A DNA stretch of 64,000 bases from positions 54,845 to 118,844 of the forward strand of contig JAEEJO010000066.1 in NCBI GenBank assembly GCA_016281915.1, given 5' to 3'. Within the stretch, counting starts at the first letter, position 1. Each line of letters starts with the position of its first letter. This stretch comes from Clostridiales bacterium (lineage in GTDB: Bacteria > Bacillota > Clostridia > Oscillospirales > UBA644). A program made the translations under genes and the position numbers. Positions 35,215-53,644 of this stretch are shown here, in pieces. The notes below the pieces were generated by a model. It did no database searches, was not told the origin of the DNA, and saw nothing but the letters and a program-made list of their open reading frames with translations.

Positions 35215-35235
35215 ATATTTAACTTCCTGTTCAAG

Positions 35236-36309
35236 TCACTTTATTTGCCTTATCTTTTGCGTTTTGCCGTAGAATATTAAATCTGCTGCGGGTATTGATT
35301 TAAATACAGCTATAATCACTGTTGTAAAAATAACTGTTAAAATCAGAGAGCAAACAAAATTAATCAGTCCGGAGAAAGTAAAGAAGCTGACTTCGATTGC
35401 CATCAACCTGTTTACACACATATGCGTAGCGTAAATTTCAAGTGTGAATAAACCAAGCTTATCCAGATGGATTCTGTTGAAAACAGTCTCGTATTTTTTG
35501 CATGTTGTCAGAATTACTGCATTACCTGCAAATCCTGAAATAATTCTCATCACAATGCTTATGATACCGTCATCATTATGGTAGAGGTCAAAGTTGAAAA
35601 CGATTCCGAGAAAAATGCCCAGGCACAAGAAGACAATAATATTTCCTGCCTTTGGCCACCACTGTTTCCACCAGTCCTCTGTCCACTTTGTCAACCAACC
35701 GAATCCATAAAAGACAGCATAATAAAGAATATACTTTATGCCAAGAAAGTTTATCCCCGCAAGCTTTGCAATTCCAAGGAGAACCGCCAGGACGATAACG
35801 AGAACGCATCCCGTTTTAGCAATTTTCCATCTACCGGCAGCAAGAGCATAGCTTGCAAGAGCCGTTACACATGAAAGGATAAAAATGACCCATAAAAACC
35901 AAAGCCCGGAATCTACATGATAAAAAAGATGGATCAGGCCTGTAATGGGATTTCGGCCATAATATCCGAGTAATAATACGTCAATCAACAGAAACCACGA
36001 GAAAAACGGCAGTGCGTAGTGCAGAGATGATAACAGAATTCTTTTTGCGAGCATTTTGAAGCTGTCAATTTTTCTTGCGGCAAAATACCCTGATATAAGC
36101 ATAAAGCCCGGCATTTGTACAGCCCAAATAAAATTTGTAAGAATCCCGCCCTCATCAGATACTGAATACTGCAGAACATGACGAATAACAACAAGAATAA
36201 TCAATATTCCCTTATAAACGTCAAGCGTTTTATTTCTTTGTTTGTTTGAATTCAGCAGACTGTTTACCTGCGAACTGTTTTTTTCTTCAGGTGAATTTTC
36301 TGTATTCAT
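35236..36309 (-). CDS. Acyltransferase 3 family membrane O-acyltransferase
   Basis: 357-aa polytopic protein. The N-terminal LDVYKGILIILVVIRHV is typical of the acyltransferase_3 family. Confidence 0.75.
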   Translation of the reverse strand: MNTENSPEEKNSSQVNSLLNSNKQRNKTLDVYKGILIILVVIRHVLQYSVSDEGGILTNFIWAVQMPGFMLISGYFAARKIDSFKMLAKRILLSSLHYALPFFSWFLLIDVLLLGYYGRNPITGLIHLFYHVDSGLWFLWVIFILSCVTALASYALAAGRWKIAKTGCVLVIVLAVLLGIAKLAGINFLGIKYILYYAVFYGFGWLTKWTEDWWKQWWPKAGNIIVFLCLGIFLGIVFNFDLYHNDDGIISIVMRIISGFAGNAVILTTCKKYETVFNRIHLDKLGLFTLEIYATHMCVNRLMAIEVSFFTFSGLINFVCSLILTVIFTTVIIAVFKSIPAADLIFYGKTQKIRQIK

Positions 36310-36410
36310 AAACTTCCCCTTGAATTCTCTGGCGGCGATGAAGATCGTTTATACGATCAGAATATGAACATCTCATAATGTCATTATAACAATGCAGATT
36401 ATAATGCAGA

Positions 36411-37532
36411 TCACAAGAGAATAAATGCGAGTAAAACATAGCCTCTGACCATTGAGCTTGAAAAAAGCAAGGTCAAAACGTTTGCACCGAATAAAAAGCC
36501 GAGCCTCTGATATGAATCATCGTCTGTTCTGAGTACTTTTATCCATTTATAAATGATGTATACGATAAAAGCCGTTCCGAGTATGTAGCCGAATGACAGA
36601 ATACTTTCATATATGACGTTGTGAGGATACGTAGGTGCCCAACCGCCGCCGATGCCCCAGCCTGTGACAGGCTTCAATTGTATCTGCTCTGCAATACTTG
36701 CGAGAATCGTAGAACGACCGGAATCGTGCGTGATAAACTGACTGCTCTTTATGAGGTTGACGGTTCTGCTGCTGACGCCCAGAGTAGTAGCCAGATTTTC
36801 AATAACGCCGATTATTTCTGTCCAGAAAACAATTATAACAACAACTGATGCGACGACTGTCAACGATGTTAATACTTTAGCCTTTTTCGAAACATCCTTA
36901 CTGAGGATAAGTCGGATAACGACGTAAAGACCTATGCTGACAAGCGGACCGCGGGAACAGAATAAAACAGTATAAATAATGTCGATTGCAGCAATAATGA
37001 TATTGTATGCCCTTCTGTTCTCAAAGAATCTGTCGATAAGTATCAGCAGATGCGGTAAAAGAGAATAACCGAGAGACATTGAATAACCGCTGTTTGTATA
37101 GAACAACATACTGAAGTATATGAACACATGGGTTATCAATGAAGTTTTATACATAGAGTCAAGCAGTTTTTTTCTGTCGTCTATTTCATGCAGGCAGCAG
37201 GAAAAGGGAATGCTTGTTACGCACGTAATACGTATACTGTCAACAAAAACGGACATATTGGTGAATGTGTGACGGATATACGTCAGTCCGAATAGAAGCA
37301 GAATGATCAGTTCAACCAGAACAAAAAAGAAGAATCTCTTTTTTTTGATGAGTCCGTACAGACCAAACAGAGTCAATCCGCCTTGAAGGATCATATATAT
37401 TGGTGACCATAAAGATGAAAGCCCGCCTATGCTGCTCAGCGAAACGTTCACACTTAAAAGCAATAAATAACCGCAGCAATAAAGCGACAGATAATGGTCC
37501 GGATTTCTGTTTATCGGTATAGCAATTTTCAT
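36411..37532 (-). CDS. O-antigen/EPS polymerase (Wzy / O-antigen ligase-like) membrane protein
   Basis: 373-aa ORF with about 10 TM segments and one larger loop, sited inside a glycosyltransferase cluster. Confidence 0.6.
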   Translation of the reverse strand: MKIAIPINRNPDHYLSLYCCGYLLLLSVNVSLSSIGGLSSLWSPIYMILQGGLTLFGLYGLIKKKRFFFFVLVELIILLLFGLTYIRHTFTNMSVFVDSIRITCVTSIPFSCCLHEIDDRKKLLDSMYKTSLITHVFIYFSMLFYTNSGYSMSLGYSLLPHLLILIDRFFENRRAYNIIIAAIDIIYTVLFCSRGPLVSIGLYVVIRLILSKDVSKKAKVLTSLTVVASVVVIIVFWTEIIGVIENLATTLGVSSRTVNLIKSSQFITHDSGRSTILASIAEQIQLKPVTGWGIGGGWAPTYPHNVIYESILSFGYILGTAFIVYIIYKWIKVLRTDDDSYQRLGFLFGANVLTLLFSSSMVRGYVLLAFILL

Positions 37533-37572
37533 TATTTACTTCCTTAAGATTTCAATGCTTATAGGGGTTTAT

Positions 37573-38754
37573 TTAACCGGATATTTCTTCAAGAAGGTTT
37601 TGTGCCAGTTTTTTATCCGTCATTTTTGCGGCGGTAAGATACGCATTTTCTGAAATTCTCTGTATTTCGTTGCATGGAGTCGAAGCAAGAGACATAAAAA
37701 GATCCGTCAAAGCATCAACATCTCCGAGAGGAACAAGAAAGCCGTTTTCATTGTTTATTACGACTCCGTCGATTCCTTCGTTTACTGCACCGATCGGTAT
37801 GCAGCCCTGAGACATGGCTTCAACATAGACCATTCCAAAAGTTTCACGGCTGATGAGAACCAGAGCATCGGCTTTTTTCATATACGGAAAAACTTCTTCA
37901 TGCGGAACTTTGCCAATAAAGCTGACAAGATGACTTATATTCAGTTCCGAAACAAGATTTTTAAAATATTCCGCATCCGCGCCGTCGCCCAGCACTTCGA
38001 GCGACATCGACGGAGCCGCTTTGGACACAGCACGCAGGACGGTTTCAAGTCCTTTTGATTTATATAGCGCTCCGACATAGACAAGCTTTTTAACGGCGGT
38101 CCGATAAACCGGTTTTTCATCGACGGCAGTTTCGGGGATACCGGAATACATATATGTGTATTTGTGATCCCCGATAAAAGATGTTATCTGCGGAAGCTGT
38201 TTTCTTGAACGGATAAGAAGGCACGGAACATTTTTCAACGTGGTGCACAGTTCAGAGTTTTTCAAAAAGCTGAAATCAGTGTCATGAATGATCTGAAGCT
38301 GTTTTGTTGCTAATATTGACGCACAGTGTTTAATGACATGGAGAACCGGATCAAGACAATCCCCTATTAAGATATCCTGCTCGGGCATATTTTCGGCTAT
38401 GATCTTTTCTGTTTGACTGCAAAGCTTTTTGAGCGTCTGTTTTCCTGCTTTGCCGTGCGGGATATATTTCATATAATTTCGGCGGTGAATAAAAACGCCG
38501 TTATACAGGTAGTCTTTATCTGTCTGAGCCTCCGGAGGGACGATGAATTTTTTAAGTCCGCTATAGCCTATCTTTCCGAGAATACCTGCAGCGCTGTTAA
38601 ATAATGGTGGGTATTTCCGGCAAAAATGGATCACATGGACCGTATGGCCCATTTTTACCCATTCATAAGCATAGTTATAAAGAAACTGCGTTGCGTATGT
38701 TTTACCCGGACAGTCATAGCTCGGAAAATGTCCGGTGACCAATAGTATATTCAT
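37573..38754 (-). CDS. Glycosyltransferase family 4
   Basis: 393-aa ORF. MNILLVTGHFPS... N-terminus and C-terminal SRETFGMVYVEAMSQGCIPIG (E-x7-E region). Confidence 0.8.
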   Translation of the reverse strand: MNILLVTGHFPSYDCPGKTYATQFLYNYAYEWVKMGHTVHVIHFCRKYPPLFNSAAGILGKIGYSGLKKFIVPPEAQTDKDYLYNGVFIHRRNYMKYIPHGKAGKQTLKKLCSQTEKIIAENMPEQDILIGDCLDPVLHVIKHCASILATKQLQIIHDTDFSFLKNSELCTTLKNVPCLLIRSRKQLPQITSFIGDHKYTYMYSGIPETAVDEKPVYRTAVKKLVYVGALYKSKGLETVLRAVSKAAPSMSLEVLGDGADAEYFKNLVSELNISHLVSFIGKVPHEEVFPYMKKADALVLISRETFGMVYVEAMSQGCIPIGAVNEGIDGVVINNENGFLVPLGDVDALTDLFMSLASTPCNEIQRISENAYLTAAKMTDKKLAQNLLEEISG

Positions 38755-38771
38755 TCTGTTCCTTCCCGCTG

Positions 38772-39344
38772 TCAGCGCAAGCCACGTTCATTGATTATGC
38801 GGGCAGCATTAACCGCATCGTATTTCCACCATTCAGTTTGTTGAAGGTCACGTATCCTGTCTTCTGAAAAGCGGTATTTGATGATCTTTGCAGGCACTCC
38901 GCCTACTATGGCATAATCGGGAACGTCACGGTTTACCACGGCGCCCGCGGCAATGACGGCGCCGTTTCCGACATGAACCCCTCTCAGAATCACTGCATTC
39001 AAACCTATCCAGACGTCATTGCCTATGACCGTTTCTTTTTCGGTAAGGCTGTATTGTTCGCCGCACGCTTTCAGCATAGCCGCAGACGTGCTGACTCGGT
39101 CGATAGGATGCTCGCCGGGACCGATCGTAACAAAAGGTGCGATTGAGCAATAATTACCGATTCTTGCTTCGGTTACGGTTGCAAATCTTCCGAAATAACA
39201 ATAATTTCCGACATATGTTTTTTCGTCGATGACCACTCCGTTTTTAAAGGAGCATTTTTTGCCGTAAGAGCCGTAAACACCTTTTCTGAACGTAAGAATC
39301 CTCCACATACGGTGGAGCGCTTTGCGTAGTTTTGAAGTAATCAT
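38772..39344 (-). CDS. Hexapeptide-repeat (LbH) O-acetyltransferase
   Basis: The ORF extends to 39356. ATG 39344 forms an ATGA overlap with the upstream stop. Hexapeptide repeats: [31 protein letters not shown]. Confidence 0.8.
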
Positions 39345-40210
39345 ATGGTTTTCCATCTTTCAGGTATAAAAGCGTTATTGAAGCTGCTGCCTTTCGGTGC
39401 AACGACAATTCTGTCTTTTGAGTCGCCGAGCCAATTGCCCCACCAGCTGAAAGTGCTTTGGGACATTATACCGTGGCGGCAAAGGCTTATACCGCACAGA
39501 TCGTCTGAAGCGGACCATTTATTATCCTGATAAACGACGTTTTCGCATGATGGAAAAAGTTCTTTTTTACACCATGAAATATCGTCAGAAAAAACTGCAA
39601 AAACCGGAGTTTCAACGATCGATTCAATATATGACTTTGCGCGTCGGTAATAGTCAATCATTTCATTGTCCGAATATCCGTATGCTTTGCCTGCGAGGTC
39701 GCCCCTGCGTATATGAACGGAAACCGTTTCAGTGGTATGGGCAAGCGCAAGCCATTTTTTGACTTTTTCCGTCGTTTCTTCTGGAAAACTGAACTCTTTT
39801 TTTATTTCTTCTGCGCAGTCACAAAAATATTTTTCCGTTTGCCAATATCCGTCATAATAACAGGTCTTTCCGGGCTTATAAGGGACAGCTTCGGTATACG
39901 TATGTCTTTTTTCCTTGACGTAATAGATATTGTCAGGCAGAGAACATCTGAAAAAATTCAATCTTCTTGTTATAAGGCTGATGCTGTGAAGCTGAAACGG
40001 TTTTACGCTTTTCGGGCGCGCTACGGTTTCAAAACCTGAGAGATCAAAACCGGATATTTCAACTCGCCTTTCCGAAACATATCCTGGCTGCTTTTTATAA
40101 AAATCAACATCAAATGCCAGAGTGTCGTTTTTTTCTTTTGCAAGACGATAGCCGAACGCATACTGAAACATCTGATTGCAAAGACCGCCCCAAAGCTTAA
40201 TAATGATCAT
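39341..40210 (-). CDS. Alpha-1,2-fucosyltransferase (GT11)
   Basis: 289-aa ORF. N-terminal [17 protein letters not shown] and the HIRRGD motif ([12 protein letters not shown]), both GT11 signatures. Confidence 0.85.
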
Positions 40211-40248
40211 ATGTTTTCCCCTGTCCCAGATCTGTTATTCTCGATTAA

Positions 40249-41571
40249 TTACAGTCTCCACCATTTCATTCCGGAGGCTTTCAGATCATTAATATTATAC
40301 AGACCCTTAACGTCGATCACAACTTTTTCTTCGTCCGGCACCTGTCTGAAAAGAGTCTTGATGCCGCTGAGTCCGAGAGTTTTGAATTCGTTATGCGCAA
40401 CGGCTGTAATAACGCAATCGACGTCTGAGACGTCCTCGAATTTTGTGAGTTTAATACCGTATTCGTGCAACGCGTCGCGTTCAGATGCCCACGGATCGAC
40501 GACCAATGGAGATATGCCGTAGGTGTTGAGACGTTTTATTATGTCATCGACCTTGCTGTTGCGCGTATCAGGACAGTTTTCTTTAAATGTCAGACCAAGG
40601 ATGGCAACCTTGCTCTTTTTGGGAGCCTGACCGGCTTCAATCATTTTTTTAACGGCGGCATCCGCAACATAAGCGCCCATAGAGTCGTTGACGATACGTC
40701 CGTTCAGAATGATCTGGCTGTGATATCCCAATTTTTCGGCTTCATAAGTAAAATAATAAGGATCTACGCCGATACAGTGACCGCCGACAAGTCCGGGACG
40801 AAAACCGAGAGCATTCCACTTAGTGTTCATGCCGTCTACAACTTCATTTGTGTCTATATCCATACGGTCAAAGACCATTGCGAGTTCGTTCATAAACGCT
40901 ATATTGATATCTCGCTGGCTGTTTTCAACCACTTTTACCGCTTCGGCCGTTCTGAGATTTGAAACAGGATGAGTTCCGACTTCTATGACAAGATCATAGA
41001 CGGATTTGATTTCCGCGAGAGATTCACTGTCTATGCCGGAAACTATTTTGTGTATATTTTCAAGACGGTGAACTTTGTCACCGGGATTAATGCGTTCGGG
41101 AGAATAGCCGACTTTAAAGTCAACGCCGCATTTAAGTCCGCTTTGTTTTTCAAGAATAGGTATGCAGACATCTTCTGTACATCCGGGATAAACGGTGGAC
41201 TCATAAACGACGATCGAACCGCAGGACAGATGACGGCCGACGATCTCTGATGCGCTGACAACAGGTGTAAGATCCGGCGTATGGTCGGTATTGACCGGTG
41301 TGGGAACAGCAACGATGATAAACCTGGCTTTTTCCAAATCTTTTTCATCAGAGGTAAAGTGTATTTTGGTGTTTTTAATTTCTTCATCGCCCACTTCTTT
41401 TGTTGGGTCGATTCCCGAGCGATAAAGAGCGATTTTTTCTTTATTTAAATCAAAACCGATAACGTTCAGCCCTTTTTTCGCAAATGCGTGCGCAATCGGC
41501 ATACCTACATAGCCGAGTCCGACAAGTGCAAGTGATTCAGTTCCGGCAATGAGTTTTTTATAAAGTGACAT
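40249..41571 (-). CDS. Nucleotide-sugar (UDP-N-acetylhexosamine) 6-dehydrogenase, TviB/WbpO/Cap5O-like
   Basis: The ORF extends to 41613. ATG 41571 (MSLYKKLIAG) has TAGGAGA 8 nt upstream. NAD-binding GLGYVGMPIAHAFA and the catalytic Cys loop VGGHCIGVDPYY. Confidence 0.85.
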   Translation of the reverse strand: MSLYKKLIAGTESLALVGLGYVGMPIAHAFAKKGLNVIGFDLNKEKIALYRSGIDPTKEVGDEEIKNTKIHFTSDEKDLEKARFIIVAVPTPVNTDHTPDLTPVVSASEIVGRHLSCGSIVVYESTVYPGCTEDVCIPILEKQSGLKCGVDFKVGYSPERINPGDKVHRLENIHKIVSGIDSESLAEIKSVYDLVIEVGTHPVSNLRTAEAVKVVENSQRDINIAFMNELAMVFDRMDIDTNEVVDGMNTKWNALGFRPGLVGGHCIGVDPYYFTYEAEKLGYHSQIILNGRIVNDSMGAYVADAAVKKMIEAGQAPKKSKVAILGLTFKENCPDTRNSKVDDIIKRLNTYGISPLVVDPWASERDALHEYGIKLTKFEDVSDVDCVITAVAHNEFKTLGLSGIKTLFRQVPDEEKVVIDVKGLYNINDLKASGMKWWRL

Positions 41572-41689
41572 TTTTAATCTCCTACTATCACATGTTCTCT
41601 TAAATATCTTCAAGTTTTTTATGAGTTTTTAAAACCGTATTTTTCGCCGCATGGCGTGAGTTTTCAGACATTTCAGCATTTTCGCGCTG

Positions 41690-42457
41690 TCATCTGCTTA
41701 CATATCTTATCTTCTTATAAACTCCGAATACCATATTCCGCCCTGTATTAAACACTGCTGCAACAGGGTTCTGACCTTCAGATTCTCTATATAGCCTGTA
41801 GTGCCAGCCGATCATGGTCTTTATGCTGTGTGTGCTTATGCTGCCTGTTCTTCCGCGTCGGTAAAGCGCCAGCTCTTCGTTTAAAAGATAGCAGTTTGCC
41901 TTTCTGCAGACCTTGAGCCACATGGCGTAATCATTATTTTTCTTAATATCCGCAATTTGTATAAGCCCAACAGCGTCTCTGTCATACATAACAGTCAGAC
42001 ATCCCGGCCAGCAATAATTAAAAAACCCTGTTTTAGTGATTTTACGGGGTCCAGTAACGGTGATTCCGTTTCTTTTGCCGTCGGAATCTATCTCTGCATA
42101 ATTCGTGTACGAAAAATGATATCCGTTCTCCATCATGAATGTGATCTGCTTTTCCAGCTTATCGGGCATCCACAGATCGTCTGAATCCAGAAATGCGATC
42201 CATTTCCCTTTTGCCTCACGAAGAGCTCTGTTTCGGCTCACTGCGGCACCGCTGTTTTTTTCGTTCTTTAAGTATTTAATCCGCTCATCTGACAGATACT
42301 CTTTCACAACTTGATCGGTATTATCAGACGAGCAGTCATCCACGATAATTAATTCCCAGTCATTATAGCTCTGAGCCAGAACGGAGCGGATTGATGATGA
42401 TATAAAAGAAGCCGTATTATAAGACGGCATAATAATTGACACTAATCCGGACATCAT
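41690..42457 (-). CDS. Glycosyltransferase family 2
   Basis: 255-aa ORF. VSIIMPSYNTASFI...IIVDDCSSDNT...FLDSDD (DxD). Confidence 0.88.
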   Translation of the reverse strand: MMSGLVSIIMPSYNTASFISSSIRSVLAQSYNDWELIIVDDCSSDNTDQVVKEYLSDERIKYLKNEKNSGAAVSRNRALREAKGKWIAFLDSDDLWMPDKLEKQITFMMENGYHFSYTNYAEIDSDGKRNGITVTGPRKITKTGFFNYCWPGCLTVMYDRDAVGLIQIADIKKNNDYAMWLKVCRKANCYLLNEELALYRRGRTGSISTHSIKTMIGWHYRLYRESEGQNPVAAVFNTGRNMVFGVYKKIRYVSR

Positions 42458-43182
42458 CTTTTCTCGTGCTCCTTAATCAATTCCCTGGCATGTTCCTGCA
42501 GCATATCATATTGAGAAACAGACACTTTTCCCTCTTTCAGCAGAGCGTCGCCGTAGTCTAAGGCGGTGGCATTCTCTCCGTCAGTGATGCCCTCCTGCTT
42601 TATCAGCGCGACCTTCACCGTTTCAAGAATAAGTTTAACGTCACCAAGAAAAGTGATTTTTTCGATATATTTCAGATCCCAGTCCAGTTTATCTTCCCAT
42701 GTGATCGCGTTTCGTCCCTTAACCTGAGCAAGACCGCTCAAGCCGGGTTTGACGGTATGGCGCATCCTTTGTCTGTCGGACATAAACACCATATCACGCA
42801 CAAGCTGAGGTCTTGGTCCTATCACGGACATTTCTCCTCGCAGTATGTTGAAAGCTTCCGGAAGCTCATCAAGGCTGGTGGCCCTCAAAGCCCTGCCAAA
42901 CTTGCCGAGCCGTACTTCGTCTGGAAGAAGGTTTCCGTTTTCGTCACGCGCATCGGACATGGTGCGGAACTTGTACATATCAAAGATACGTTCTTTCCCC
43001 GTCTCAGGATCGATCATTCCCGGTCGAGGCTGCCTGAAAAGCACCGGGCGCCCCATTTTGATGCGCACTAAAATTGCAATAATGATGTAAAGCCAGCTGA
43101 AAATGATGATGGCAAGCAGGGAACATATGATATCCAGTAACCGTTTTATGTACTTTTCATAAAAGCCGCGTTTTCGTTGCAT
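42454..43182 (-). CDS. Undecaprenyl-phosphate sugar phosphotransferase (PglC/WcfS-type 'bacterial sugar transferase')
   Basis: The listed ORF starts at GTG 43206. ATG 43182 gives MQRKRGFYEKYIKRLLDI... Motifs: KFRTM and LDELPEAFNILRGEMSVIGPRP. Confidence 0.88.
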   Translation of the reverse strand: MQRKRGFYEKYIKRLLDIICSLLAIIIFSWLYIIIAILVRIKMGRPVLFRQPRPGMIDPETGKERIFDMYKFRTMSDARDENGNLLPDEVRLGKFGRALRATSLDELPEAFNILRGEMSVIGPRPQLVRDMVFMSDRQRMRHTVKPGLSGLAQVKGRNAITWEDKLDWDLKYIEKITFLGDVKLILETVKVALIKQEGITDGENATALDYGDALLKEGKVSVSQYDMLQEHARELIKEHEKR

Positions 43183-43193
43183 ATATGATTTCC

Positions 43194-43415
43194 TTACCTG
43201 AAACACCTGTGAATAATATCAATAATCCTATCCTGCTGCTCGGGCGTCATCTTGTTATCGCTTGGCAGACAGAGTCCTCTGCGGAAAAGGTCGGCTCCAA
43301 CGTCGATTCCGGAGCCTTTTATGTAAGCGTTGGTGCGACCTCTGCCGTTACCTTCGACCGTAACGAAGGGGTTTGAGCGGTATATCGGCTGCATATGCAT
43401 GGGCTTCGAAGTTTG
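43194..43415 (-). pseudogene. 3' fragment (about 70 codons) of a DegT/DnrJ/EryC1/StrS PLP aminotransferase, truncated by element insertion
   Basis: ...SKPMHMQPIYRSNPF...FRRGLCLPSDNKMTPEQQDRIIDII matches the extreme C-terminus of this roughly 370-aa family. An in-frame TGA lies at 43416-43418. Upstream sequence is AT-rich non-coding DNA followed by recombinase genes. Confidence 0.8.
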
Positions 43416-43809
43416 TCAGATGGGATAAACACAATATATTGTAGTTAAAATGAGTCAAATATTCAATAACACCACTATATATTGATTTGTTGAACAAGCT
43501 CAAGTTCCAAATCGCATCGTTTCTCAGCTTGGGTAAACAGAAGAAACCTGCTGGGTGTGTATCCGAATTACAATTTACTCGTAAGTTGAAAACAAACCCA
43601 GTGGGCTGATTTTATTAAGCTAACGAAAAAACAAGAAACATCAGTTTATAGTCTGTTCAAGAATAAGTTGTCTTTTTTCATCCGTAAGCAAAAATCTATG
43701 TTCTTTTGCCGATTTCTACTCCTTTATCTTTTTTTCTCGTAACACAAGGATGTAATAATGCGGTTTTCTGAATGCATCCTTGAATTCCTTTCTTTGTGTA
43801 CTTGAGCAA

Positions 43810-44943
43810 TCAATCAACCTCAACCCCATCACTTTTGATGACTATCCTTTTCGCATCCCCGTATTTCAGCAGATATTCCTCTTTTACATTTCGGCACTTG
43901 CATCCGTTCTTTTTACGCTTTTCCCTGCAGATCCAGGTCTTGATCTTCTCACCACCTGGGCCGTAAACCGTCCTTCGTGTCATGGGAGCACCGCACTCAC
44001 CACAAAAAATTTTCCCATACAAAAAATGTGGCTGACCACCTCTGTGACCAACTTTTTCTCCGATTTTCTTATTTTCTTCCAGCTTTGCCTGAACTGCATC
44101 CCACACATCCCTGCTCACAATAGCTTCATGATCATTTTCCAGGTAGTTGCTCTCGAACATGATTGAAGTGTCAGGTTTTTTGCTTATGAAATCCTTCGGT
44201 GGCTGCTTTTGGAGCAGCTTATCTCCCTTGTAAGTTTCGTTTTTCAAAATGTAAAGGATACTATATCGGCTGAGAGGAGTGTTGTTTCTAGTCTTCACTC
44301 CAATGTCTGTCAGGGTTCTGATGATCTCTTCCACGGTCTTTCCCTGAAGGAAAAGAGCAAAGATGAGCCGTACTGAATCGGCGTACTGGTTTGCCACTAG
44401 CTTTCCATCAACCGTATCATAGCCGAGAATGCGGTTATTTCCCAGGTTAAACTCGCCGCGTTTAAAGCGTTCCTTATATCCCCAGCGGATGTTCTCGGAA
44501 ATGCTGCGACTCTCGTTCTCCGCAATGGCTGACATTAGGGAAAATATGAAGGAACTGGTCGGATCGTCTGTTCTCAGCCTTTCCTTCTCGAACTCAACCG
44601 TCACATTCCTAGATCTCAGCATGTCCGTGTACTTTTTACACTCCGCGACATTGCGCGAGAATCGGGAAACGCTCTTGCAAAGAATCCGGTCGATCTTGCC
44701 GTTCATCGCCGCCTTGATCATTTTCATGAACCCCGGCCTTTTTTCGGCACGAAGTCCAGACAGGCTATCAGAGTACACACCCTCAAGCTCCCAGTCAGTA
44801 CGAAGGCTGATGAGATTGATATAGACTTCCTGTTGTGTCTCTAGGCTGTTTTCCTGAGTGTCCATCTTGGTACTGACTCGGCAGTACACAGCGACCTTCA
44901 TTTTCTTATTTTCCCGTTTCGCAGGAATTCTTGTTATCTGCAT
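43810..44943 (-). CDS. Large serine recombinase (third of three)
   Basis: 377-aa ORF with SD AAGGAGG 7 nt upstream. Catalytic-Ser motif VAVYCRVST, a recombinase domain and the Zn-ribbon CGECGAPM...CREKRKKNGCKC. Confidence 0.9.
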   Translation of the reverse strand: MQITRIPAKRENKKMKVAVYCRVSTKMDTQENSLETQQEVYINLISLRTDWELEGVYSDSLSGLRAEKRPGFMKMIKAAMNGKIDRILCKSVSRFSRNVAECKKYTDMLRSRNVTVEFEKERLRTDDPTSSFIFSLMSAIAENESRSISENIRWGYKERFKRGEFNLGNNRILGYDTVDGKLVANQYADSVRLIFALFLQGKTVEEIIRTLTDIGVKTRNNTPLSRYSILYILKNETYKGDKLLQKQPPKDFISKKPDTSIMFESNYLENDHEAIVSRDVWDAVQAKLEENKKIGEKVGHRGGQPHFLYGKIFCGECGAPMTRRTVYGPGGEKIKTWICREKRKKNGCKCRNVKEEYLLKYGDAKRIVIKSDGVEVD

Positions 44944-44955: not shown

Positions 44956-46335
44956 TTATCCTGCGTGAGCCGAGCTTAGTGCCAGTCCCATCAGGAATTT
45001 GTATTTGTTCTTCTTTACGCCGCATCTAATCCGATCCAGATAGTCGTTGTAGAAAACAGAATAGCGGGATGGGCAGTAGCGTTCTTCGGAGAAATCCAAT
45101 TGCGAGACTTTCGTATCTCCGTCACACCAATGAATTGTCACCTGTTCTTCGTTTAACAGAATTGTCTCCATCGTGTCATCCAGCCAGTAAAATTCGACCG
45201 TTTCCTTTTTCTCGCCATATTTTTCTTCATAGGCTTTGACCATCGCCTCATCCAGCACATTCTGAATGATCAAATAACCCCCACATCCGCCTTCTCCATA
45301 GCACCCCCAGCCGCCGTTCTGGATCCTCTCGCCGTTGTAGTAAAAATTGTTCAGGCTCCCGTGCACCAGCGGCTTCCCGCAATGCGGGCATTTAAGCATT
45401 TCACCGTAAGGATAAGTGCTGTTTCCAACCGCCACATTTCGCATCGCCATGATCTTCTGCGCCTGATCAAAAATGTGACGATCAACTATGGCTTCGTGTG
45501 CATTCTTGACATGGAACTTCGGAAGGGCTCCGTGGTTGCGGATCTGCCTGTGGGTGAGGTGGTTTTCAATGTATGTTTTCTGCATGACCACATCCCCAGC
45601 ATACTTCTCATTTTTGATCATCCGATCAATCTGCAGCCTTTTCCAGCATTTTCCAGCTGGAGGCTTAATGCCCCTTGCGGTCATGTCATTCATGATGTCC
45701 AGCGGAGCTTCCCCGTGCACAAACCGTTCGAAAATTTCCTTAACAACCGCTGCCTCCTCTTTTTGAATGAGGAACATCTCATCATCAGAATGGTAGAAGC
45801 CATAAAGGGGAACCTTAACCTCGTTCCCGGCTTCAAACCTTTTCCGGATGCCCCATTTCACGTTCTCGGAAATACTCCGGCTCTCCTCCTGCGCGAAGGA
45901 TGCCATGATGGTCAGAACCATCTCTGAAAGGGCGTCCGCGGTATCGATTCCTTCTTTTTCAAAAAAGACCTGAACACCGTAACTTTGCAGTTCACGTACC
46001 GTAGAAAGTGTGTCAACCGTATTTCTGGCAAATCTGCTGATGCTCTTGGTGACGATGTAGTCGATTTCTCCGGCTTTGCAGTCCTCGATCATCTGCTGGA
46101 ACTGAACCCTGCCCTTCACCGAAGTCCCGCTTAGCCCCTCATCAACGTACACATTTTTAAGATCCCAATCCCCGCGCTGCGCTGCCCGGAACCGGAAGGT
46201 CTCTATCTGGTTTTCTAAGCTTTCTAGCTGCGCCTCATGGTTTGTGCTCACACGGCAATAGGCGGCAACACGCTTTCTGCTGGCATACTTCGGCTCTTCA
46301 ATTCTCGTTACTGTTTTCGACAAAGCGTTCTCCAT
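44956..46335 (-). CDS. Large serine recombinase (second of three)
   Basis: 459-aa ORF. VAAYCRVST and the Zn-ribbon CPHCGKPL...GCYGEGGCGG. Overlaps the upstream recombinase by 38 nt. Confidence 0.9.
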   Translation of the reverse strand: MENALSKTVTRIEEPKYASRKRVAAYCRVSTNHEAQLESLENQIETFRFRAAQRGDWDLKNVYVDEGLSGTSVKGRVQFQQMIEDCKAGEIDYIVTKSISRFARNTVDTLSTVRELQSYGVQVFFEKEGIDTADALSEMVLTIMASFAQEESRSISENVKWGIRKRFEAGNEVKVPLYGFYHSDDEMFLIQKEEAAVVKEIFERFVHGEAPLDIMNDMTARGIKPPAGKCWKRLQIDRMIKNEKYAGDVVMQKTYIENHLTHRQIRNHGALPKFHVKNAHEAIVDRHIFDQAQKIMAMRNVAVGNSTYPYGEMLKCPHCGKPLVHGSLNNFYYNGERIQNGGWGCYGEGGCGGYLIIQNVLDEAMVKAYEEKYGEKKETVEFYWLDDTMETILLNEEQVTIHWCDGDTKVSQLDFSEERYCPSRYSVFYNDYLDRIRCGVKKNKYKFLMGLALSSAHAG

Positions 46336-47212
46336 CTCTCAATAAAGTCTGATTCGTTACTCGGGGCTGTTTGCGGGAAGCAAGTAGGTATCGGTTCATA
46401 ATCTCCTGCACCCTGTCAAAAAGCTCAGGGCTGACAATTGGCTCATGATGCTCTGTGATGTAAAACTGATCCCGGTAGCCGTTGTTCTTCACTTGCTTTC
46501 CAGGAACCAGGGATATGGTTTTGTGAGATTGATAATCACCCTTGTAGACAACATTTGTAAGCAAGTACTTTAGCCGCCTATGGCTCCATGTAAAGCCACT
46601 CATCTCATTCAGCGTTCTCTGGATATCCGTGTAGTTTTTTCCTTCCGCCGCCATTTTGAAAGCCTTGATGACCAGAGGTGCTTCTTCCCCGTTGATAACC
46701 CATTTATTGTCTCCTCCGTTTTTGTAACCGAAAGAAATCTGGCCGAAAGGGTTGCCCTCCATCGCGTGCTGTTCATGCGCCAGAAGTGTATGCTGACTGA
46801 TACTATGGCTTTCTTCTTCCGCAATGGCAGCAAAAATGTTCAAAACAAAAGCGCATTTCTCATTTTGAGAATTGATATTCTCTTTTTCAAAAATGATGTT
46901 CACCCCAAGATCTTTCAGCTCCCGGATCATTGCAGCACACTCTGCCATGTTGCGAGAAAAACGGGAAATTGACTTTGTGAGGATCAGATCGATCTTTCCA
47001 GCTCTACAGTCATCAATGAGCTTTTGCAGGCCAGGGCGTTTCTCTGTGCTCCAGCCGCTCTTGCCCTTGTCGCCGTAGATGCCCACGAGTTCCATTGTTG
47101 TGTTGGCTTTTATCATGTCTTTATAGTAGCTTACCTGGAGCTCGTAGGAACCATCTTGTGCTTCTTTATCCGTACTGACCCTGCAGTAAGCTGCAGTCTT
47201 TATTTTTTTCAT
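46298..47212 (-). CDS. Serine recombinase (first of three, short, no Zn-ribbon)
   Basis: 304-aa ORF with SD AAAGGAGA. TAAYCRVST, with resolvase and recombinase domains only. Confidence 0.88.
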   Translation of the reverse strand: MKKIKTAAYCRVSTDKEAQDGSYELQVSYYKDMIKANTTMELVGIYGDKGKSGWSTEKRPGLQKLIDDCRAGKIDLILTKSISRFSRNMAECAAMIRELKDLGVNIIFEKENINSQNEKCAFVLNIFAAIAEEESHSISQHTLLAHEQHAMEGNPFGQISFGYKNGGDNKWVINGEEAPLVIKAFKMAAEGKNYTDIQRTLNEMSGFTWSHRRLKYLLTNVVYKGDYQSHKTISLVPGKQVKNNGYRDQFYITEHHEPIVSPELFDRVQEIMNRYLLASRKQPRVTNQTLLRDGERFVENSNEN

Positions 47213-47806: not shown

Positions 47807-48019
47807 TCATACCTTATCCTGCAGCGCAGTGATCTGTTTCTGCAATTCTTGTCTGCGAGGATTACGTTTCACAGACTCTTTCAGTGATTTCGCGCTGCCC
47901 GCATGCAATGCATCTCCAGAAATCTGCCTCACTAAGTTTTTATATGCGGTATGCTTATTTAAATTGAAATCGATTCTAGTGCTTTCTCCTTCGCCCTCGC
48001 ACTCAGATATTTCAACCAT
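47807..48019 (-). CDS. Hypothetical 70-aa ORF overlapping the end of the previous gene (possibly its frameshifted continuation)
   Basis: Overlaps 47959..48402 by 61 nt in another frame. The distal part (RIDFNLNKHTAYKNLVRQISGD...QELQKQITALQDKV) looks helical. Confidence 0.25.
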   Translation of the reverse strand: MVEISECEGEGESTRIDFNLNKHTAYKNLVRQISGDALHAGSAKSLKESVKRNPRRQELQKQITALQDKV

Positions 48020-48402
48020 TCATCATACTGGTATTTGGAAATAGCATGGCGGGTTAGCAAAACATCTAGCAACTGTTTCTGCTTGATGAAAAGCCGTCTG
48101 TTCTTCTCCTCATATGAAAGTAACTCCCATTCCTCTGTATCAAGATGAACGCTCATGTCTTTTGCTCTTTCCTCTAACTCATATCTACTATCTTTTTTCG
48201 AAGACTTTCCTGTTCCAAACAATAATGGGAACAAATTAAAGGAGGTCTTGTTGTAGGCAGCCTTTTTGGGGTTCTTAATCCATCCCGCACCTTTCTTGCC
48301 ATAGCCGGGTATGAATGCCGCCTTAATTTTTCTTTTCAACCTGCTTGTTGTCCGTGCTTTGAAAGACCTTTTCAGACTTGGTTTTCTTGCTCCAAATTTC
48401 AT
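47959..48402 (-). CDS. Small basic protein with SHOCT-like C-terminal helix pair
   Basis: 147-aa ORF with SD AAGGAT. Lys/Arg-rich N-terminus (KPSLKRSFKARTTSRLKRKIKAAFIPGYGKKGAGWIKNPKKAAYNK). C-terminal LLDVLLTRHAISKYQYDEWLKYL resembles SHOCT. From memory only. Confidence 0.55.
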   Translation of the reverse strand: MKFGARKPSLKRSFKARTTSRLKRKIKAAFIPGYGKKGAGWIKNPKKAAYNKTSFNLFPLLFGTGKSSKKDSRYELEERAKDMSVHLDTEEWELLSYEEKNRRLFIKQKQLLDVLLTRHAISKYQYDEWLKYLSARAKEKALESISI

Positions 48403-48413
48403 ATACCATATCC

Positions 48414-49208
48414 TTATTTTTTAAGTCCGTCGGTTGATTTATTGTCTGTCTCGCTACTTTCCTCGATTCCGTGATCATTTTTGTTTAATTCATCCAAAAA
48501 TCCCGCGGTTATAATGCCTGATGGCAATGCTATGATGGCGATTCCAAAAACAGATGAAATCATAGTTATTATTCTCCCCATTACCGTTACCGGATAAATA
48601 TCTCCATATCCAACTGTTGTCAGTGAAACTGTTGCCCAATACACGGCATCAAAGAAGTTGTTGAATGATTCCGGCTCGACATTGAAAACTACTAATGCCG
48701 ATATGAAAACATAGACTATTGCCAACAGCCCAACAGTCATCAATGGCCTGCGCTGCCTAACGAAAACCCCTTTAATCATTTTGATACTTTTTGAGTAGCG
48801 AACTGCTTTGAATATACGAAACACACGAAACGTTCGAAAAAGGCGAAACACTTTCAGGATTCTGAAACCACTGTTAATTATGCTTAATGATGGTAGTATG
48901 CATAACAGATCAATAATTGCCATTGGTGTAATAGGATAAATCAAAAATGACCATTTACCCTTTTTTAGTTTCATATCTGCTGTTAAAAGCCTTAGGACAT
49001 AGTCTATGATAAAAATCACGACCGCTATCTTGTCTATACATTCAAATACCAACCACTCATTTTTGAAAGCAAGTGGAATCAAACTAACAACGATTACCGA
49101 CATCATAAAGAAATCATAAGCGTTGCTTAATCTGTCTTTCTCTGAAGCAGGTTCAATAATCTGAAATAGTCGTTTTCTCATTCTTTTCCCTTCACTGTCC
49201 TGAAACAT
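48414..49208 (-). CDS. Voltage-gated-type (6TM) potassium channel
   Basis: 264-aa ORF. The S4 segment has a basic residue every third position (RILKVFRLFRTFRVFRIFKAVRY). Selectivity filter: SLTTVGYGDIYP. ATG 49208 abuts the upstream stop (TAAATG). An alternative ATG at 49181 has GAAGGGA upstream. Confidence 0.88.
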   Translation of the reverse strand: MFQDSEGKRMRKRLFQIIEPASEKDRLSNAYDFFMMSVIVVSLIPLAFKNEWLVFECIDKIAVVIFIIDYVLRLLTADMKLKKGKWSFLIYPITPMAIIDLLCILPSLSIINSGFRILKVFRLFRTFRVFRIFKAVRYSKSIKMIKGVFVRQRRPLMTVGLLAIVYVFISALVVFNVEPESFNNFFDAVYWATVSLTTVGYGDIYPVTVMGRIITMISSVFGIAIIALPSGIITAGFLDELNKNDHGIEESSETDNKSTDGLKK

Positions 49209-51083
49209 TTATGGCTTGCAGTTTCCGCAAGGAGAATAACCTCTATTCATTAGCTCATCCCTGGTTTCATTTGTGACGTCGTAATTCTCCGGTTTGATCT
49301 TTGATACACTGTGACAATCTGGATAATGGAATTTTTTGGTATTGGTGTTAAGAACATAAGTATAAGACTTACCATCTGATGAAGAGTCTGGCGATTGATC
49401 TTTCGTTATCTGTGATGAAGAAGAATTATCAAAGACTATAAAAGTATCTGCATTCGCGTTCTTGGCAACTGTAAATGATACTTTCTTTCCGTCGCTTTCA
49501 CATGTAACGTCGCCCTGAATATCAGTGCGAAATACTGTGACATCAGCGTCCCTTAAGCGACTCAGTGTATCATCTGTAGGATGTCCATAGCTGTTGTTAC
49601 TGCCAACTGATATTACAGCGTATTTGGGCATAATTGCCCTTAAGAACGGATAGCTTGTTGCGTTTTCGCCGCCGTGATGTCCAACCTTTAGAACATCTGC
49701 ACTAAGTTCGGACTCATATTTACTAAGAATAGCCCCCTCCGCTTCTCTGTTTGCATCTCCTGTAAACAAGAAAGATGTCTGACCGTAGACTATTTTTAAT
49801 ACAATTGAGGAGTTATTCGCATCGTTTAAGCTGTTAACTCCAAGTATTTTTATAGAGGCGCTTCCAAGTGTATATGTGTCTCCTGGCTTTGGAACGCTAA
49901 TTCCGCCATTTTTATCTGCGTATTTCTTGAAATCCCTAAATGCATCACTGTCATATGATGTAGACGGACAGAGAATGAGATTTGCGTTCGTATAATTCAG
50001 CGCGCCGGGGAGACCGCCGATATGGTCAGCATGAGGGTGTGAGGCAACCATTATGTCAATCACAGGGACATTCAGGCGTTTCAGAATCGAGTACATCTTG
50101 TCCGAATCGCCTTTATTGCCGCCGTCAATGATCATATAGTGTCCATCACATTGAACAATCGCAGCATCGCCCTGCCCGACATCAATAAACCTAACCCAGA
50201 AAGTTGAAGGTTCATTGTTTTTTGCAGCTGCCTCCGCAGCAGCCTTAGCCTCTGCTTCTGCTTTTGCCTTGGCTTCCGCTTCTGCCTTTGCTCTGGCCTC
50301 TGCCTCTGCTTTTGCCTTGGCTTCGGCCTCTGCTTTTGCTTTAGACTCTGCTTCTGCCTTTGCCTTTGCTTCCGCTTCTGCCTTTGCTTTGGCCTCTGCC
50401 TCTGCTTTCGCTTTGGCCTCTGCCTCTGCCTCAGCCTTCGCTTTAGCCTCTGCCTCTGCTTTCGCTTTGGCCTCTGCCTCCGCTTTTGCCTTGGCTTCGG
50501 CCTCTGTTTTTGCCTTGGCTTCGGCCTCTGCTTTTGCTTTAGCTTCTGCTTCCGCTTTCGCCTCTGCCTCAGCTTTTGCTTTCGCCTCTGCCTCAGCCTT
50601 CGCTTTAGCCTCTGCTTCTGCTTTCGCTTTCGCCTCTGCCTCAGCCTTCGCCTTTGCTTCTTCATCGGCCTTTATTCGAGCCTCTTCTTCAGCTTTTATG
50701 CGGTCTTCTTCTTCAGCTTTCGCCTTTGCTTTTTCTTCGGTTTTTAAGCGTTCCTCTTCTTCAGCGTTGCTGTTTGTATCTTCATCAGACTGATAATCAG
50801 AAATGTCTTTCGTAGAGTTGAGAGTATCTGTAGTTTCCTCTACAACAAAATCTTTTGATAAAGATATATCCTCATTTTCAGGATTTTTAGTAATAGAACC
50901 GATTATTGAGGTCGCAATAAAAAACAAGAATACCCCGGCAAGAACAACAGGCCATATCTTCTGCTTTTTAGCCTTTACTTGTACCGGATTTTGATAACGT
51001 GGTTGATTTTGCTGTTGACCACAATTGGGACAGAATTTGACATTATCATTAATTAGTGCTCCGCATTTAGTACAAAAAGCCAT
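49209..51083 (-). CDS. Membrane-anchored ComEC-type metallo-beta-lactamase-fold protein with N-terminal Zn-ribbon, long charged helical stalk and C-terminal Ada-like Zn-finger
   Basis: The ORF extends to 51119. ATG 51083 (MAFCTKCG...CPNCG) has AAGGTGG 7 nt upstream. TM helix: IWPVVLAGVFLFFIATSIIGSI. About 180 aa of E/A/K repeats. MBL motifs FIDVGQGDA...SHPHADHIGG...KVGHHG. C-terminal FHYPDCHSV...CGNC. Confidence 0.85.
   Translation of the reverse strand: MAFCTKCGALINDNVKFCPNCGQQQNQPRYQNPVQVKAKKQKIWPVVLAGVFLFFIATSIIGSITKNPENEDISLSKDFVVEETTDTLNSTKDISDYQSDEDTNSNAEEEERLKTEEKAKAKAEEEDRIKAEEEARIKADEEAKAKAEAEAKAKAEAEAKAKAEAEAKAKAEAEAKAEAEAKAKAEAEAKAKTEAEAKAKAEAEAKAKAEAEAKAKAEAEAEAKAKAEAEAKAKAEAEAKAKAEAESKAKAEAEAKAKAEAEARAKAEAEAKAKAEAEAKAAAEAAAKNNEPSTFWVRFIDVGQGDAAIVQCDGHYMIIDGGNKGDSDKMYSILKRLNVPVIDIMVASHPHADHIGGLPGALNYTNANLILCPSTSYDSDAFRDFKKYADKNGGISVPKPGDTYTLGSASIKILGVNSLNDANNSSIVLKIVYGQTSFLFTGDANREAEGAILSKYESELSADVLKVGHHGGENATSYPFLRAIMPKYAVISVGSNNSYGHPTDDTLSRLRDADVTVFRTDIQGDVTCESDGKKVSFTVAKNANADTFIVFDNSSSSQITKDQSPDSSSDGKSYTYVLNTNTKKFHYPDCHSVSKIKPENYDVTNETRDELMNRGYSPCGNCKP
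50224..50765. repeat. In-frame degenerate tandem repeat encoding (EAKAKA)n
   Basis: A 12/24-nt periodic gcctctgcttctgcttttgccttggc... tract. It produces mirror ORFs on both strands (50215..50793 +, 50132..50665 -). Confidence 0.85.
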
Positions 51084-51166
51084 ATTGGTCCACCTTTTTA
51101 ATTTGAAAATGATATTCAAAAAGGAAATTTATCTATCTTTACTTTAATATCATAAAATACTAATTA

Positions 51167-52041: not shown

Positions 52042-52282
52042 GTTATCACAGCACATATAGGTCTTTCCAAACCGATAAAAAAAATACAATCTCACAGTCC
52101 GAGATGGCCATAAGGACGATGGGACGCATATAAGGCAGCGATACCGCAAAGGTATCAAATGCGAAGATGCACCCACCGTTGTTTTGCTGCGCCGTTTTCC
52201 GGACAGACAACGCCTGCGGTCATTTTCACTGCAGGCTTCATTTGTGTCCCACCGCCCCTGCCCGGACGGAAAGGAACACAAT

Positions 52283-52783: not shown

Positions 52784-52892
52784 TTTTTTCCGCTTAAAAA
52801 AATATTTTTCAATTTTTTTCGTTCAAAACATCTGTGTTCCTCCAGTAGGTAGTGAGAGGGGTATGAATTGCCCCGGAAAGGAGGAAACCAAA

Positions 52893-53099
52893 GTGAACAA
52901 AAAACACCTCGAAGCGGGAAATACCGCGGACCTTATCGGCGTGCTTTCGGCTATAAGCGTCGTATCAAAACGCCTTGCCGGAAAGCTCATTTTACTCGAA
53001 AGCGAAAACTGCGCGAAAACACGTCGTGACGCGGACCCGTGCAGCACATGCTCTTTGCGTTACGACGCAGCTAAAATCGGTCATCGCACATACTATTGA
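52893..53099 (+). CDS. Hypothetical small protein
   Basis: GTG 52893 has AAGGAGG 8 nt upstream. 68 aa. Confidence 0.45.
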   Translation: MNKKHLEAGNTADLIGVLSAISVVSKRLAGKLILLESENCAKTRRDADPCSTCSLRYDAAKIGHRTYY

Positions 53100-53119
53100 A
53101 AGAACAAAGGAGGAAACAA

Positions 53120-53632: not shown

Positions 53633-53644
53633 GAAGGTGAAAAT

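What the first reader, a model, noticed from the sequence alone, without database searches (positions are those of the whole stretch)
43194..43420. Phage-like element inserted inside the DegT aminotransferase gene of the capsule operon (possible excision-dependent gene switch)
Only the last ~70 codons of a DegT/DnrJ/EryC1/StrS aminotransferase remain (...SKPMHMQPIY...GLCLPSDNKMTPEQQDRII). They end 11 nt before the PglC-type transferase start (ATG 43182), which is the classic partner for amino-sugar initiation. Homology stops at about 43,410, with an in-frame TGA at 43416-18. An 8-bp palindrome CTTCGAAG (43404-43411) sits there, followed by AT-rich DNA and three serine recombinases. Serine-recombinase elements that split a gene and restore it on excision are known for other genes (sigK skin, comK, mutSL). 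Here the target would be the capsule initiating-sugar pathway, so lysogeny could toggle surface polysaccharide, which is itself a phage receptor or barrier.
Basis: partly seen in the sequence, partly recalled or inferred. Interest (0 to 1): 0.65.

Follow-up and report, generated by a model that had tools for sequence, protein, structure and literature searches.

The report
Prophage splitting a capsule aminotransferase gene
A phage-like element with three serine recombinases is docked at a conserved point inside a sugar-aminotransferase gene at the head of a capsule operon in a ruminant-gut Clostridia bacterium; this is a new target for a known kind of gene-splitting prophage, and whether it works as a reversible switch could not be tested.

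Summary
Window 43194-43407 (- strand) encodes only the last 70 codons of a 420-aa DegT/LegC-like sugar aminotransferase. It ends 11 nt before a PglC-type transferase gene. No 5' part lies anywhere in the window.

The break is real, because five independent assemblies show it. It is also site-specific. The about 40 nt on the element side (..ATCCCATCTGACAAACTTCG) recur at 72-87% identity in four other viral contigs that carry related recombinases. Each time they are joined at the same nucleotide to the same DegT sequence (AA-GCCCATGCATATGCAGCC). The crossover is probably the AA of the Lys354 codon.

Among the 80 closest species genomes, 77 carry the intact gene, so the split form is an insertion polymorphism.

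The element runs off the window, and I found no other junction in any collection. So "excision restores the gene" follows only from how serine integrases work, and "regulated switch" is untested.

The same point, and a second one 23-28 nt downstream, also border many rearrangements that have no phage. These include stacked displaced 3' ends, and permanent truncations occur among them.

The closest precedents are SPbeta in spsM and the serine-integrase triplets of streptococcal ICEs. Verdict: a new member of a known kind, of moderate interest.

The parts
43194..43407 (-). 3' remnant of a DegT/LegC-like PLP sugar aminotransferase gene: codons about 354-424 plus the TAA stop. There is no stop or frameshift in the 70 codons. 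The inferred crossover dinucleotide AA is at 43406-43405.
   Evidence: 86% to residues 355-424 of L003, E 4e-38; dN/dS 0.03-0.07 against intact homologues; position of the junction.
43408..43488 (-). End of the element (its 'P arm'): ..ACTACAATATATTGTGTTTATCCCATCTGACAAACTTCG. It is conserved in other recombinase-bearing viral contigs. It holds promoter-like hexamers that read outward towards the capsule genes.
   Evidence: L015, L021, L029 and L033; related arm in L042, L043, L191 and L247. (TTGACT-16-TATTGT and TTGAAT-17-TACAAT; consensus matches only).
43595..43607 (-). Terminator-like hairpin (AGCCCACTGGGTT + T run) after the last recombinase gene. It is conserved in related elements.
   Evidence: L029, L015, L021, L042, L043.
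43810..44943 (-). Serine recombinase 1 (377 aa): resolvase, recombinase and zinc-ribbon domains. It is the gene nearest the junction.
   Evidence: Identical protein on four other contigs. 69-79% relatives on 13 viral contigs.
44956..46335 (-). Serine recombinase 2 (459 aa): resolvase and recombinase domains.
   Evidence: (3g13, conjugative-transposon recombinase, E 2e-39).
46298..47212 (-). Serine recombinase 3 (304 aa): resolvase and recombinase domains, no zinc ribbon.
47959..51119 (-). Accessory genes on the recombinase strand: a 147-aa protein, an ion-transport channel (264 aa), and a zinc-ribbon + (EAKAKA)n + metallo-beta-lactamase-fold protein (636 aa).
52184..64000 (+). Phage early and packaging genes: sigma-like, Gp157, AAA_24, PriCT/AAA_25 primase-helicase, RusA, DUF1492, HNH, small terminase, SAM-synthetase-like, ParB-methyltransferase, amidoligase, GGACT. 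The element runs off the window.
34153..43182 (-). Capsule/EPS operon downstream of the remnant: PglC-type phosphotransferase, GT2, UDP-glucose dehydrogenase, GT11, hexapeptide acetyltransferase, GT1, a 373-aa membrane protein, acyltransferase_3, GT1.

Best explanation
A temperate phage, or phage-derived element, is integrated inside a DegT/LegC-like sugar aminotransferase gene. That gene normally sits directly upstream of the PglC-type initiating transferase of a capsule/EPS operon. The element's integration module is a triplet of large serine recombinases at its left end.

The recombination point is a fixed nucleotide position, most likely the AA of the Lys354 codon (43406-43405). To its left lies a conserved element arm. 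To its right lies the gene's own sequence GCCCATGCATATGCAGCC.

The insertion removes the last 70 of about 424 residues from the enzyme. It also separates PglC and the rest of the operon from their upstream promoter (inferred). Transcription of the operon would then depend on read-through or on an outward promoter in the element arm (inferred; consensus match only).

If the 5' part still abuts the far junction, serine-integrase excision with a directionality factor would rejoin the gene exactly. This is inferred from the chemistry of the family and is not shown here. Nothing in the data says that this is used as a regulated switch rather than being ordinary lysogeny.
For: - The fragment is the 3' end of a DegT gene, and the window holds no 5' part.
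- The junction is reproduced in five independent assemblies.
- The element arm next to the break is conserved, with the break at the same nucleotide, in L015/L032, L021/L026, L029 and L033. All of these carry relatives of the recombinases.
- A near-identical arm in the four-recombinase phages (L042, L043, L191, L247) is followed by four unrelated sequences after ..ACTTGG-AA. This places the exchange at AA.
- 77 of the 80 best-matching GTDB species genomes carry the gene intact, and so do 116 of the 120 best protein hits.
- All three recombinases keep the catalytic motif.
- The flanking 12 kb is phage.
- The remnant shows no decay: dN/dS is 0.03-0.07.
- Serine-integrase triplets that sit at an element's end, are oriented like the target gene and disrupt it are documented in streptococcal ICEs (PMC4701971).
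Against: - The right-hand junction was not found in the window, in IMG/VR, in JGI metagenomes, in GTDB genomes, in the protein collection or in the reads.
- A 56.6-kb viral contig with the same junction has no DegT 5' part in the 49 kb upstream.
- Remnants broken at the same nucleotide exist without any phage or recombinase nearby (L007, L011, L065).
- That the triplet and the phage genes form one element is inferred from gene order only. Other triplet-bearing contigs have unrelated backbones.
- No excised form was seen, but the only read data are low-depth contigs.
Confidence: 0.6

Rival explanations
1. Fixed scar. The remnant is all that is left of the gene. The 5' part has been lost or moved by later rearrangement, so the capsule operon is permanently without this aminotransferase and excision cannot repair anything.
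For: - Same-nucleotide remnants occur with no mobile element beside them: L011 (LRR protein genes upstream), L065, and L007 (three stacked remnants between toxin-antitoxin genes).
- Stable 5' alleles truncated 23-28 nt further on occur in several samples (P0212, P0229, P0242, P0199, L052, L053).
- No right junction was found.
Against: - Here the conserved element arm and apparently intact recombinase genes still sit at the break.
- The remnant has no disabling change.
- The phage genes visible in the window are uninterrupted ORFs.
Confidence: 0.2
2. Gene-preserving integration, as with e14 or phage 21 in icd. The element carries its own copy of the last 70 codons at its far end. The host gene therefore stays whole, and 43194-43407 is only the displaced original 3' end.
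For: Some loci have a complete DegT followed by a few genes and then a displaced remnant that starts at the same nucleotide: L008 (a GT2 gene between them) and L014 (GT2, PglC, PglD', remnant, recombinase-like gene, remnant). The copies are 73-85% identical in DNA but about 90% in protein, so they came from different functional genes.
Against: - In L029 and L033 the same element arm is followed by only 23-26 nt of DegT-like sequence and then by other mobile DNA.
- There is no second DegT 3' copy on the 56.6-kb viral contig.
- Known serine-integrase triplets disrupt their targets, with 2-8 bp repeats (PMC4701971).
Confidence: 0.12
3. Assembly chimera. A capsule contig and a phage contig were joined through the conserved DegT 3' sequence.
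For: The 210-bp remnant is 71-83% identical in DNA across many species in the same metagenomes.
Against: Four contigs from different assemblies, plus a unitig at 100% identity, cross the junction and continue into unique sequence on both sides.
Confidence: 0.02

Closest known systems
SPbeta prophage in spsM of Bacillus subtilis (SprA serine integrase, SprB directionality factor)
   Same: A temperate phage with a large serine integrase splits a polysaccharide-biosynthesis gene, and precise excision rebuilds the reading frame (PMC5499854, abstract seen).
   Different: - The target there is a CapD/PglF-type dehydratase, not the aminotransferase.
- There is one integrase, not three.
- Excision there is shown and is sporulation-controlled; here neither is shown.
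- Similarity of the recombinases to SprA (YokA) is weak (E about 1e-9).
Triplets of serine integrases in streptococcal ICEs (Tn1806-like; targets mutT, traG, hsdM)
   Same: Three adjacent serine-recombinase genes sit at the element's end, in the same orientation as the target gene. They insert inside a coding gene and disrupt it, and sometimes cargo genes lie between the triplet and the junction (PMC4701971).
   Different: Those are conjugative elements of streptococci. Here the backbone is phage, the host is a ruminant-gut Clostridia bacterium, and the target gene is new. The best deposited phage relative of recombinase 1 is only 38% identical.
skin element in sigK and phi10403S in comK (gene-intervening elements, 'active lysogeny')
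   Same: The concept is the same: an element interrupts a gene and restores it on excision.
   Different: Regulated, non-lytic excision defines those systems. Nothing here bears on regulation. (Own knowledge, plus the mention in PMC4701971.)
SCC elements at rlmH (orfX) with ccrAB serine recombinases
   Same: One chromosomal site near the 3' end of a conserved gene is used again and again, and elements and remnants stack in tandem. NCBIfam puts recombinase 1 nearest XisF and CcrB, though far below their cut-offs.
   Different: SCC insertion leaves rlmH intact, and the repeats are about 15-18 bp. Here whole 213-bp gene ends are repeated and the gene is cut at codon 354. (Own knowledge for the SCC features.)

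Membership tests
DegT/DnrJ/EryC1/StrS aminotransferase (PF01041) | Significant sequence similarity to family members | tested here: met
   tblastn gives 86% identity over residues 355-424 of a 424-aa PF01041 protein, E 4e-38. An intact MAG homologue is 96% identical. That homologue is nearest the LegC family in NCBIfam, below its cut-off. The fragment alone is too short for the Pfam model.
DegT/DnrJ/EryC1/StrS aminotransferase (PF01041) | Complete fold with the PLP-binding N-terminal domain | tested here: not met
   Only the last 70 codons are present, and the window holds no other part. It is a gene fragment, not a gene.
Large serine recombinase (integrase) | Resolvase catalytic domain with the serine nucleophile, plus the recombinase domain | tested here: met
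   PF00239 and PF07508 are present in all three proteins, and YCRVST is conserved.
Large serine recombinase (integrase) | Zinc-ribbon/coiled-coil domain | tested here: inconclusive
   PF13408 is found only in the 377-aa protein. The 459-aa protein has a Cys-rich stretch but no Pfam hit, and the 304-aa protein ends before it.
Large serine recombinase (integrase) | Short attP and attB sites that exchange at a 2-bp centre | tested here: inconclusive
   One junction only. AA is inferred from comparing nine junctions. attP and attR were not recovered.
Serine-integrase triplet integration module | Three adjacent genes at the element's extremity, oriented like the target gene, inserted inside a coding gene | tested here: met
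   The definition is taken from PMC4701971.
Serine-integrase triplet integration module | Direct repeats of 2-8 bp at the two ends | not testable with these tools
   The right end lies beyond the window, and the source contig is not in the collections.
Gene-intervening element / phage regulatory switch | Both halves of the gene flank the element in register | tested here: inconclusive
   The 3' half is shown. The 5' half was not found by seven searches.
Gene-intervening element / phage regulatory switch | Excision occurs and rebuilds the gene, under host or developmental control | not testable with these tools
   Only low-depth contigs of four metagenome runs hold the locus, and they show no empty site of this strain.
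Temperate tailed phage | Replication, packaging and virion genes | tested here: inconclusive
   Gp157, AAA_24, primase-helicase, RusA, HNH and small terminase are present. Large terminase, virion and lysis genes would lie beyond base 64000.

The most novel reading that the evidence does not exclude
The Lys354 point of this aminotransferase gene, together with a second point 23-28 nt downstream, would be a general docking platform in ruminant-gut Clostridia. Serine recombinases would insert and stack not only phages there but also small gene cassettes: glycosyltransferases, sugar-nucleotide enzymes, toxin-antitoxin pairs. Each insertion would displace a 213-bp gene end. Capsule loci would thus be rebuilt in an integron-like way. 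The arrays of inverted core-like repeats that follow the gene's stop codon in many relatives would be part of this system.
Probability: 0.15. Interest if true: 0.75.

Novelty: new member of a known kind. Interest (0 to 1): 0.4.

Why it matters
If the far junction is as predicted, lysogeny by this phage family would switch off the amino-sugar step that feeds the initiating transferase of a surface polysaccharide. It would also put the rest of the operon under phage-end transcription. Infection history would then set the cell surface, which is itself a phage receptor or barrier.

Relatives of the phage carry UDP-glucose dehydrogenase and epimerase genes right at this junction, which points the same way.

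The site would also be a new, well-conserved attB for a triple serine-integrase module. It is present intact in dozens of Clostridia species, which is of practical interest for genetic tools in poorly tractable gut anaerobes.

The concept itself, a serine-integrase prophage splitting a polysaccharide gene, is already established by SPbeta in spsM.

Tried and rejected
- **Fragment alone.** Pfam, NCBIfam and PDB searches gave nothing.
- **Phage collection.** Megablast of 43400-64000 found no match.
- **Walking right.** The last window gene occurs only on a 24-kb JGI contig that ends about 300 bp past the window.
- **Right junction in viral contigs.**
  - A DegT N-terminal alignment, the NAEGRPIW codon pattern and the WKPMHMQP codon pattern found only intact genes or the known left junction.
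  - The arm pattern AKCCCNNCTNACAAACTT gave mostly chance hits.
- **Right junction in JGI metagenomes.** The pattern I used could only catch breaks after the core. It found two, L052 and L053, and neither is next to a phage.
- **L029 as a free attP.** The sequence after the core proved to be the 3' part of a DUF4406-like phage gene whose intact form is in L141. L029 is therefore more likely two elements in tandem.
- **Reads.** Contigs of runs X1-X4 laid on the window and on an intact homologue gave only other species' genes.
- **Inversion of the gene's 3' end between the core and the inverted repeats.** No assembly shows the flipped form.
- **CapD remnant next to recombinase triplets that sit upstream of intact DegT genes.** None was found.
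- **Rfam** for the spacer and for the repeat arrays gave nothing.
- **The all-short top 120 hits.** I do not use this as evidence that remnants are common. Intact 96%-identical genes exist but were not listed, so the word-based candidate step favours short proteins.

Full report
**1. What is at the coordinates**

On the - strand, 43407-43194 reads KPMHMQPIYRSNPFVTVEGNGRGRTNAYIKGSGIDVGADLFRRGLCLPSDNKMTPEQQDRIIDIIHRCFR*. An in-frame TGA lies three codons upstream. Eleven nucleotides after the stop, an ATG opens a 242-aa PF02397 sugar phosphotransferase. It is followed by GT2, UDP-glucose dehydrogenase, GT11, an acetyltransferase, GT1, a membrane protein, an acyltransferase and another GT1: a capsule/EPS operon.

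The 73-aa peptide alone is too short for Pfam, NCBIfam or PDB. A 424-aa PF01041 protein from a related MAG aligns to it over residues 355-424 at 86% identity (E 4e-38) and to nothing else in the 64 kb. An intact homologue in another MAG is 96% identical in protein and is closest to the LegC family. The break is at 43407|43408.

**2. What lies to the left of the break**

- A 402-bp spacer with 34% G+C comes first. It holds a conserved terminator-like hairpin and outward promoter-like hexamers.
- Three serine recombinase genes follow, in the orientation of the aminotransferase remnant. All three keep YCRVST. Only the one nearest the junction has a recognisable zinc ribbon.
- Then come an ion channel and a metallo-beta-lactamase-fold protein on the same strand.
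- From 52.2 kb, on the other strand, come phage replication genes, HNH, small terminase and DNA-modification genes. These run off the window.
- That the triplet and the phage are one element is an inference from gene order.

**3. Is the junction real and specific?**

The identical recombinase with the same spacer and PglC gene is found on four contigs from different assemblies. A unitig of a fifth data set crosses the break without a mismatch.

Relatives of the triplet (69-82% identity) occur on 13 IMG/VR contigs. In every one that extends far enough, a conserved arm is joined to AA-GCCCATGCATATGCAGCC at the same nucleotide. In the window the arm reads ATCCCATCTGACAAACTTCG; the variants are AGCCCATATGACCACCTTGG, ATCCCATCAGTCAATTTGCA, ATCCCATCTTACAAACTTCA and AGCCCATCTAACAAACTTGG. 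The full DegT remnant follows in L015 and L021.

Phages with four recombinases carry an almost identical arm, ATCCCTACTGACAAACTTGG. After AA, it is followed by four unrelated sequences, one of them the 3' end of a dockerin-protein gene. This places the exchange at the AA (43406-43405, Lys354). It also shows that the arm belongs to the element and the sequence to its right belongs to the target.

**4. State of the gene in relatives**

Of the 80 GTDB species genomes with the most similar 3' end, 77 have an intact gene of about 420 codons. Two have remnants only. Of the 120 best proteins found with an N-terminal query, 116 are intact.

None of these genomes is a close relative of the window's organism; only the 210 bp align. 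A strain-level empty site is therefore not available.

The window's remnant differs from intact homologues almost only at synonymous positions (dN/dS 0.03-0.07) and has no disabling change. This fits a recent insertion or a maintained sequence. It cannot tell the two apart.

**5. The missing half**

The 5' part is not in the window. I looked for DegT 5' sequence ending at this point in several places:

- IMG/VR, with three patterns.
- JGI metagenomes.
- The protein collection.
- Metagenome contigs laid on an intact gene.

No junction of the form 'DegT 1-353 + AA + phage arm' turned up. A 56.6-kb viral contig with the same left junction has no DegT 5' part in the 49 kb before it.

What did turn up are 5' parts broken 23-28 nt further on..KPMHMQP|TCSGKVA*..KPMHMQPI|PSA*, L052 and L053. 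None is next to a phage in the DNA held. Two cases of the element arm keep only 23-26 nt of DegT sequence before another mobile element begins (L029, L033). So there seem to be two closely spaced break points.

**6. A hot spot rather than a single event**

Several loci carry DegT 3' ends that start at exactly AAGCCC. Some of these are stacked:

- L007 has three remnants, separated by toxin-antitoxin genes and other small genes.
- L008 has a complete gene, then a GT2 gene, then a remnant.
- L014 has a complete gene, then GT2, PglC and a truncated PglD, then a remnant, a recombinase-like gene and another remnant.
- L011 has LRR-protein genes and then a remnant.
- L065 and L079 carry remnants only.

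Copies within one locus are 73-85% identical in DNA but about 90% in protein, so they derive from different functional genes. Their left partners share no motif. This shows two things. Permanent remnants exist, which supports the scar rival. And some insertions bring a replacement 3' end, which supports the gene-preserving rival. It also allows the more novel reading of a cassette-stacking platform, which I rate at 0.15.

**7. Mechanism proposed, and what is shown**

- Shown: a remnant of the gene; a conserved element arm at a fixed nucleotide; three apparently functional serine recombinases; phage genes; intact genes in most relatives.
- Inferred from the known chemistry of large serine integrases and from the triplet modules of streptococcal ICEs (PMC4701971): conservative attP x attB exchange at a 2-bp centre; truncation of the enzyme; exact repair on excision with a directionality factor.
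- Inferred from operon layout: loss of the amino-sugar donor for PglC, and dependence of the operon on phage-end transcription.
- Not supported by any data: regulated, non-lytic excision.

**8. Comparison and novelty**

The closest system is SPbeta in spsM, where a serine-integrase phage splits a polysaccharide gene that excision rebuilds (PMC5499854). The integration module itself matches the serine-integrase triplets described for ICEs.

The target gene, the host group and the phage backbone are new. The nearest deposited phage recombinase is 38% identical, and three literature searches found no report of this site. I file it as a new member of a known kind, interest 0.4.

Noticed in passing
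L055 10213-10440; also L056, L060, L062, L067, L008 (after 11890), L011-L013, L014 (after 1284 and 5597), L015 (after 10213), L053, L258: In many relatives the DegT stop codon is followed by an array of 4-8 degenerate repeats of 33-42 bp. The first 20 nt or so of each unit (ATCGGCTGNAYATGMATGAGG) are the reverse complement of the DegT sequence at the break (CCCATGCATATGCAGCCGAT). So inverted repeats flank the gene's 3' end. The array is absent where PglC follows directly, as in the window. There is no Rfam match, TRF does not call it, and no flipped form appears in any assembly.
   Followed up: partly
L007 9053-12440; L014 1-5600; L008 8884-11890; L079 5055-9600: Stacked DegT 3' ends all start at the same nucleotide, with toxin-antitoxin, glycosyltransferase or recombinase-like genes between them. 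The layout resembles a cassette array.
   Followed up: partly
L258 3845-4984; L259; L052; L053; proteins P0212, P0229, P0242, P0199: DegT 5' alleles are cut 23-28 nt downstream of the window's break and recur in several samples. L258 also holds a second, shorter DegT 5' fragment (residues 1-207) and an IS3 element.
   Followed up: partly
L008 9970-10020: A 25-bp tandem duplication (CCAATTTGGAAACCCATGCATATGC, two copies) lies exactly over the break region of an otherwise complete DegT gene and shifts the frame.
   Followed up: no
L015 3164-6962; L029 4606-7163; L022 8606-11163; L026: Relatives of the element carry an HTH-fused UDP-glucose dehydrogenase and an NAD-dependent epimerase between the recombinase triplet and the junction, plus a fourth serine recombinase. 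These are sugar-nucleotide genes delivered into a capsule locus.
   Followed up: partly
L019 1-4902; L046; L138: More distant recombinase triplets (about 30-53% identity) lie 0.6-2.7 kb upstream of intact DegT genes in the same orientation. Their attachment point was not identified.
   Followed up: no
L029 12470-12660; window 43530-43512 and 43433-43415: Direct copies of a motif like the element arm (TTTAKCCCAWCYGWCRAA) precede the junction: five in L029 at about 30-bp spacing and two in the window. These could be extra recombinase-binding sites.
   Followed up: no
L043 19990-20250 (IMG/VR contig 2571042740_000001): The same kind of element arm abuts the 3' fragment of a dockerin-repeat protein gene. 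This recombinase family therefore also splits cellulosome-related genes.
   Followed up: no
window 49209-51119: A 636-aa protein has an N-terminal zinc ribbon, about 200 residues of (EAKAKA)n repeat and a metallo-beta-lactamase fold. The repeat creates long spurious ORFs on both strands (50132-50665, 50215-50793).
   Followed up: no
L033 1650-2150: Here the element arm plus 26 nt of DegT sequence lies upstream of the triplet and points away from it, towards another serine recombinase gene. That is the opposite arrangement to the window.
   Followed up: no
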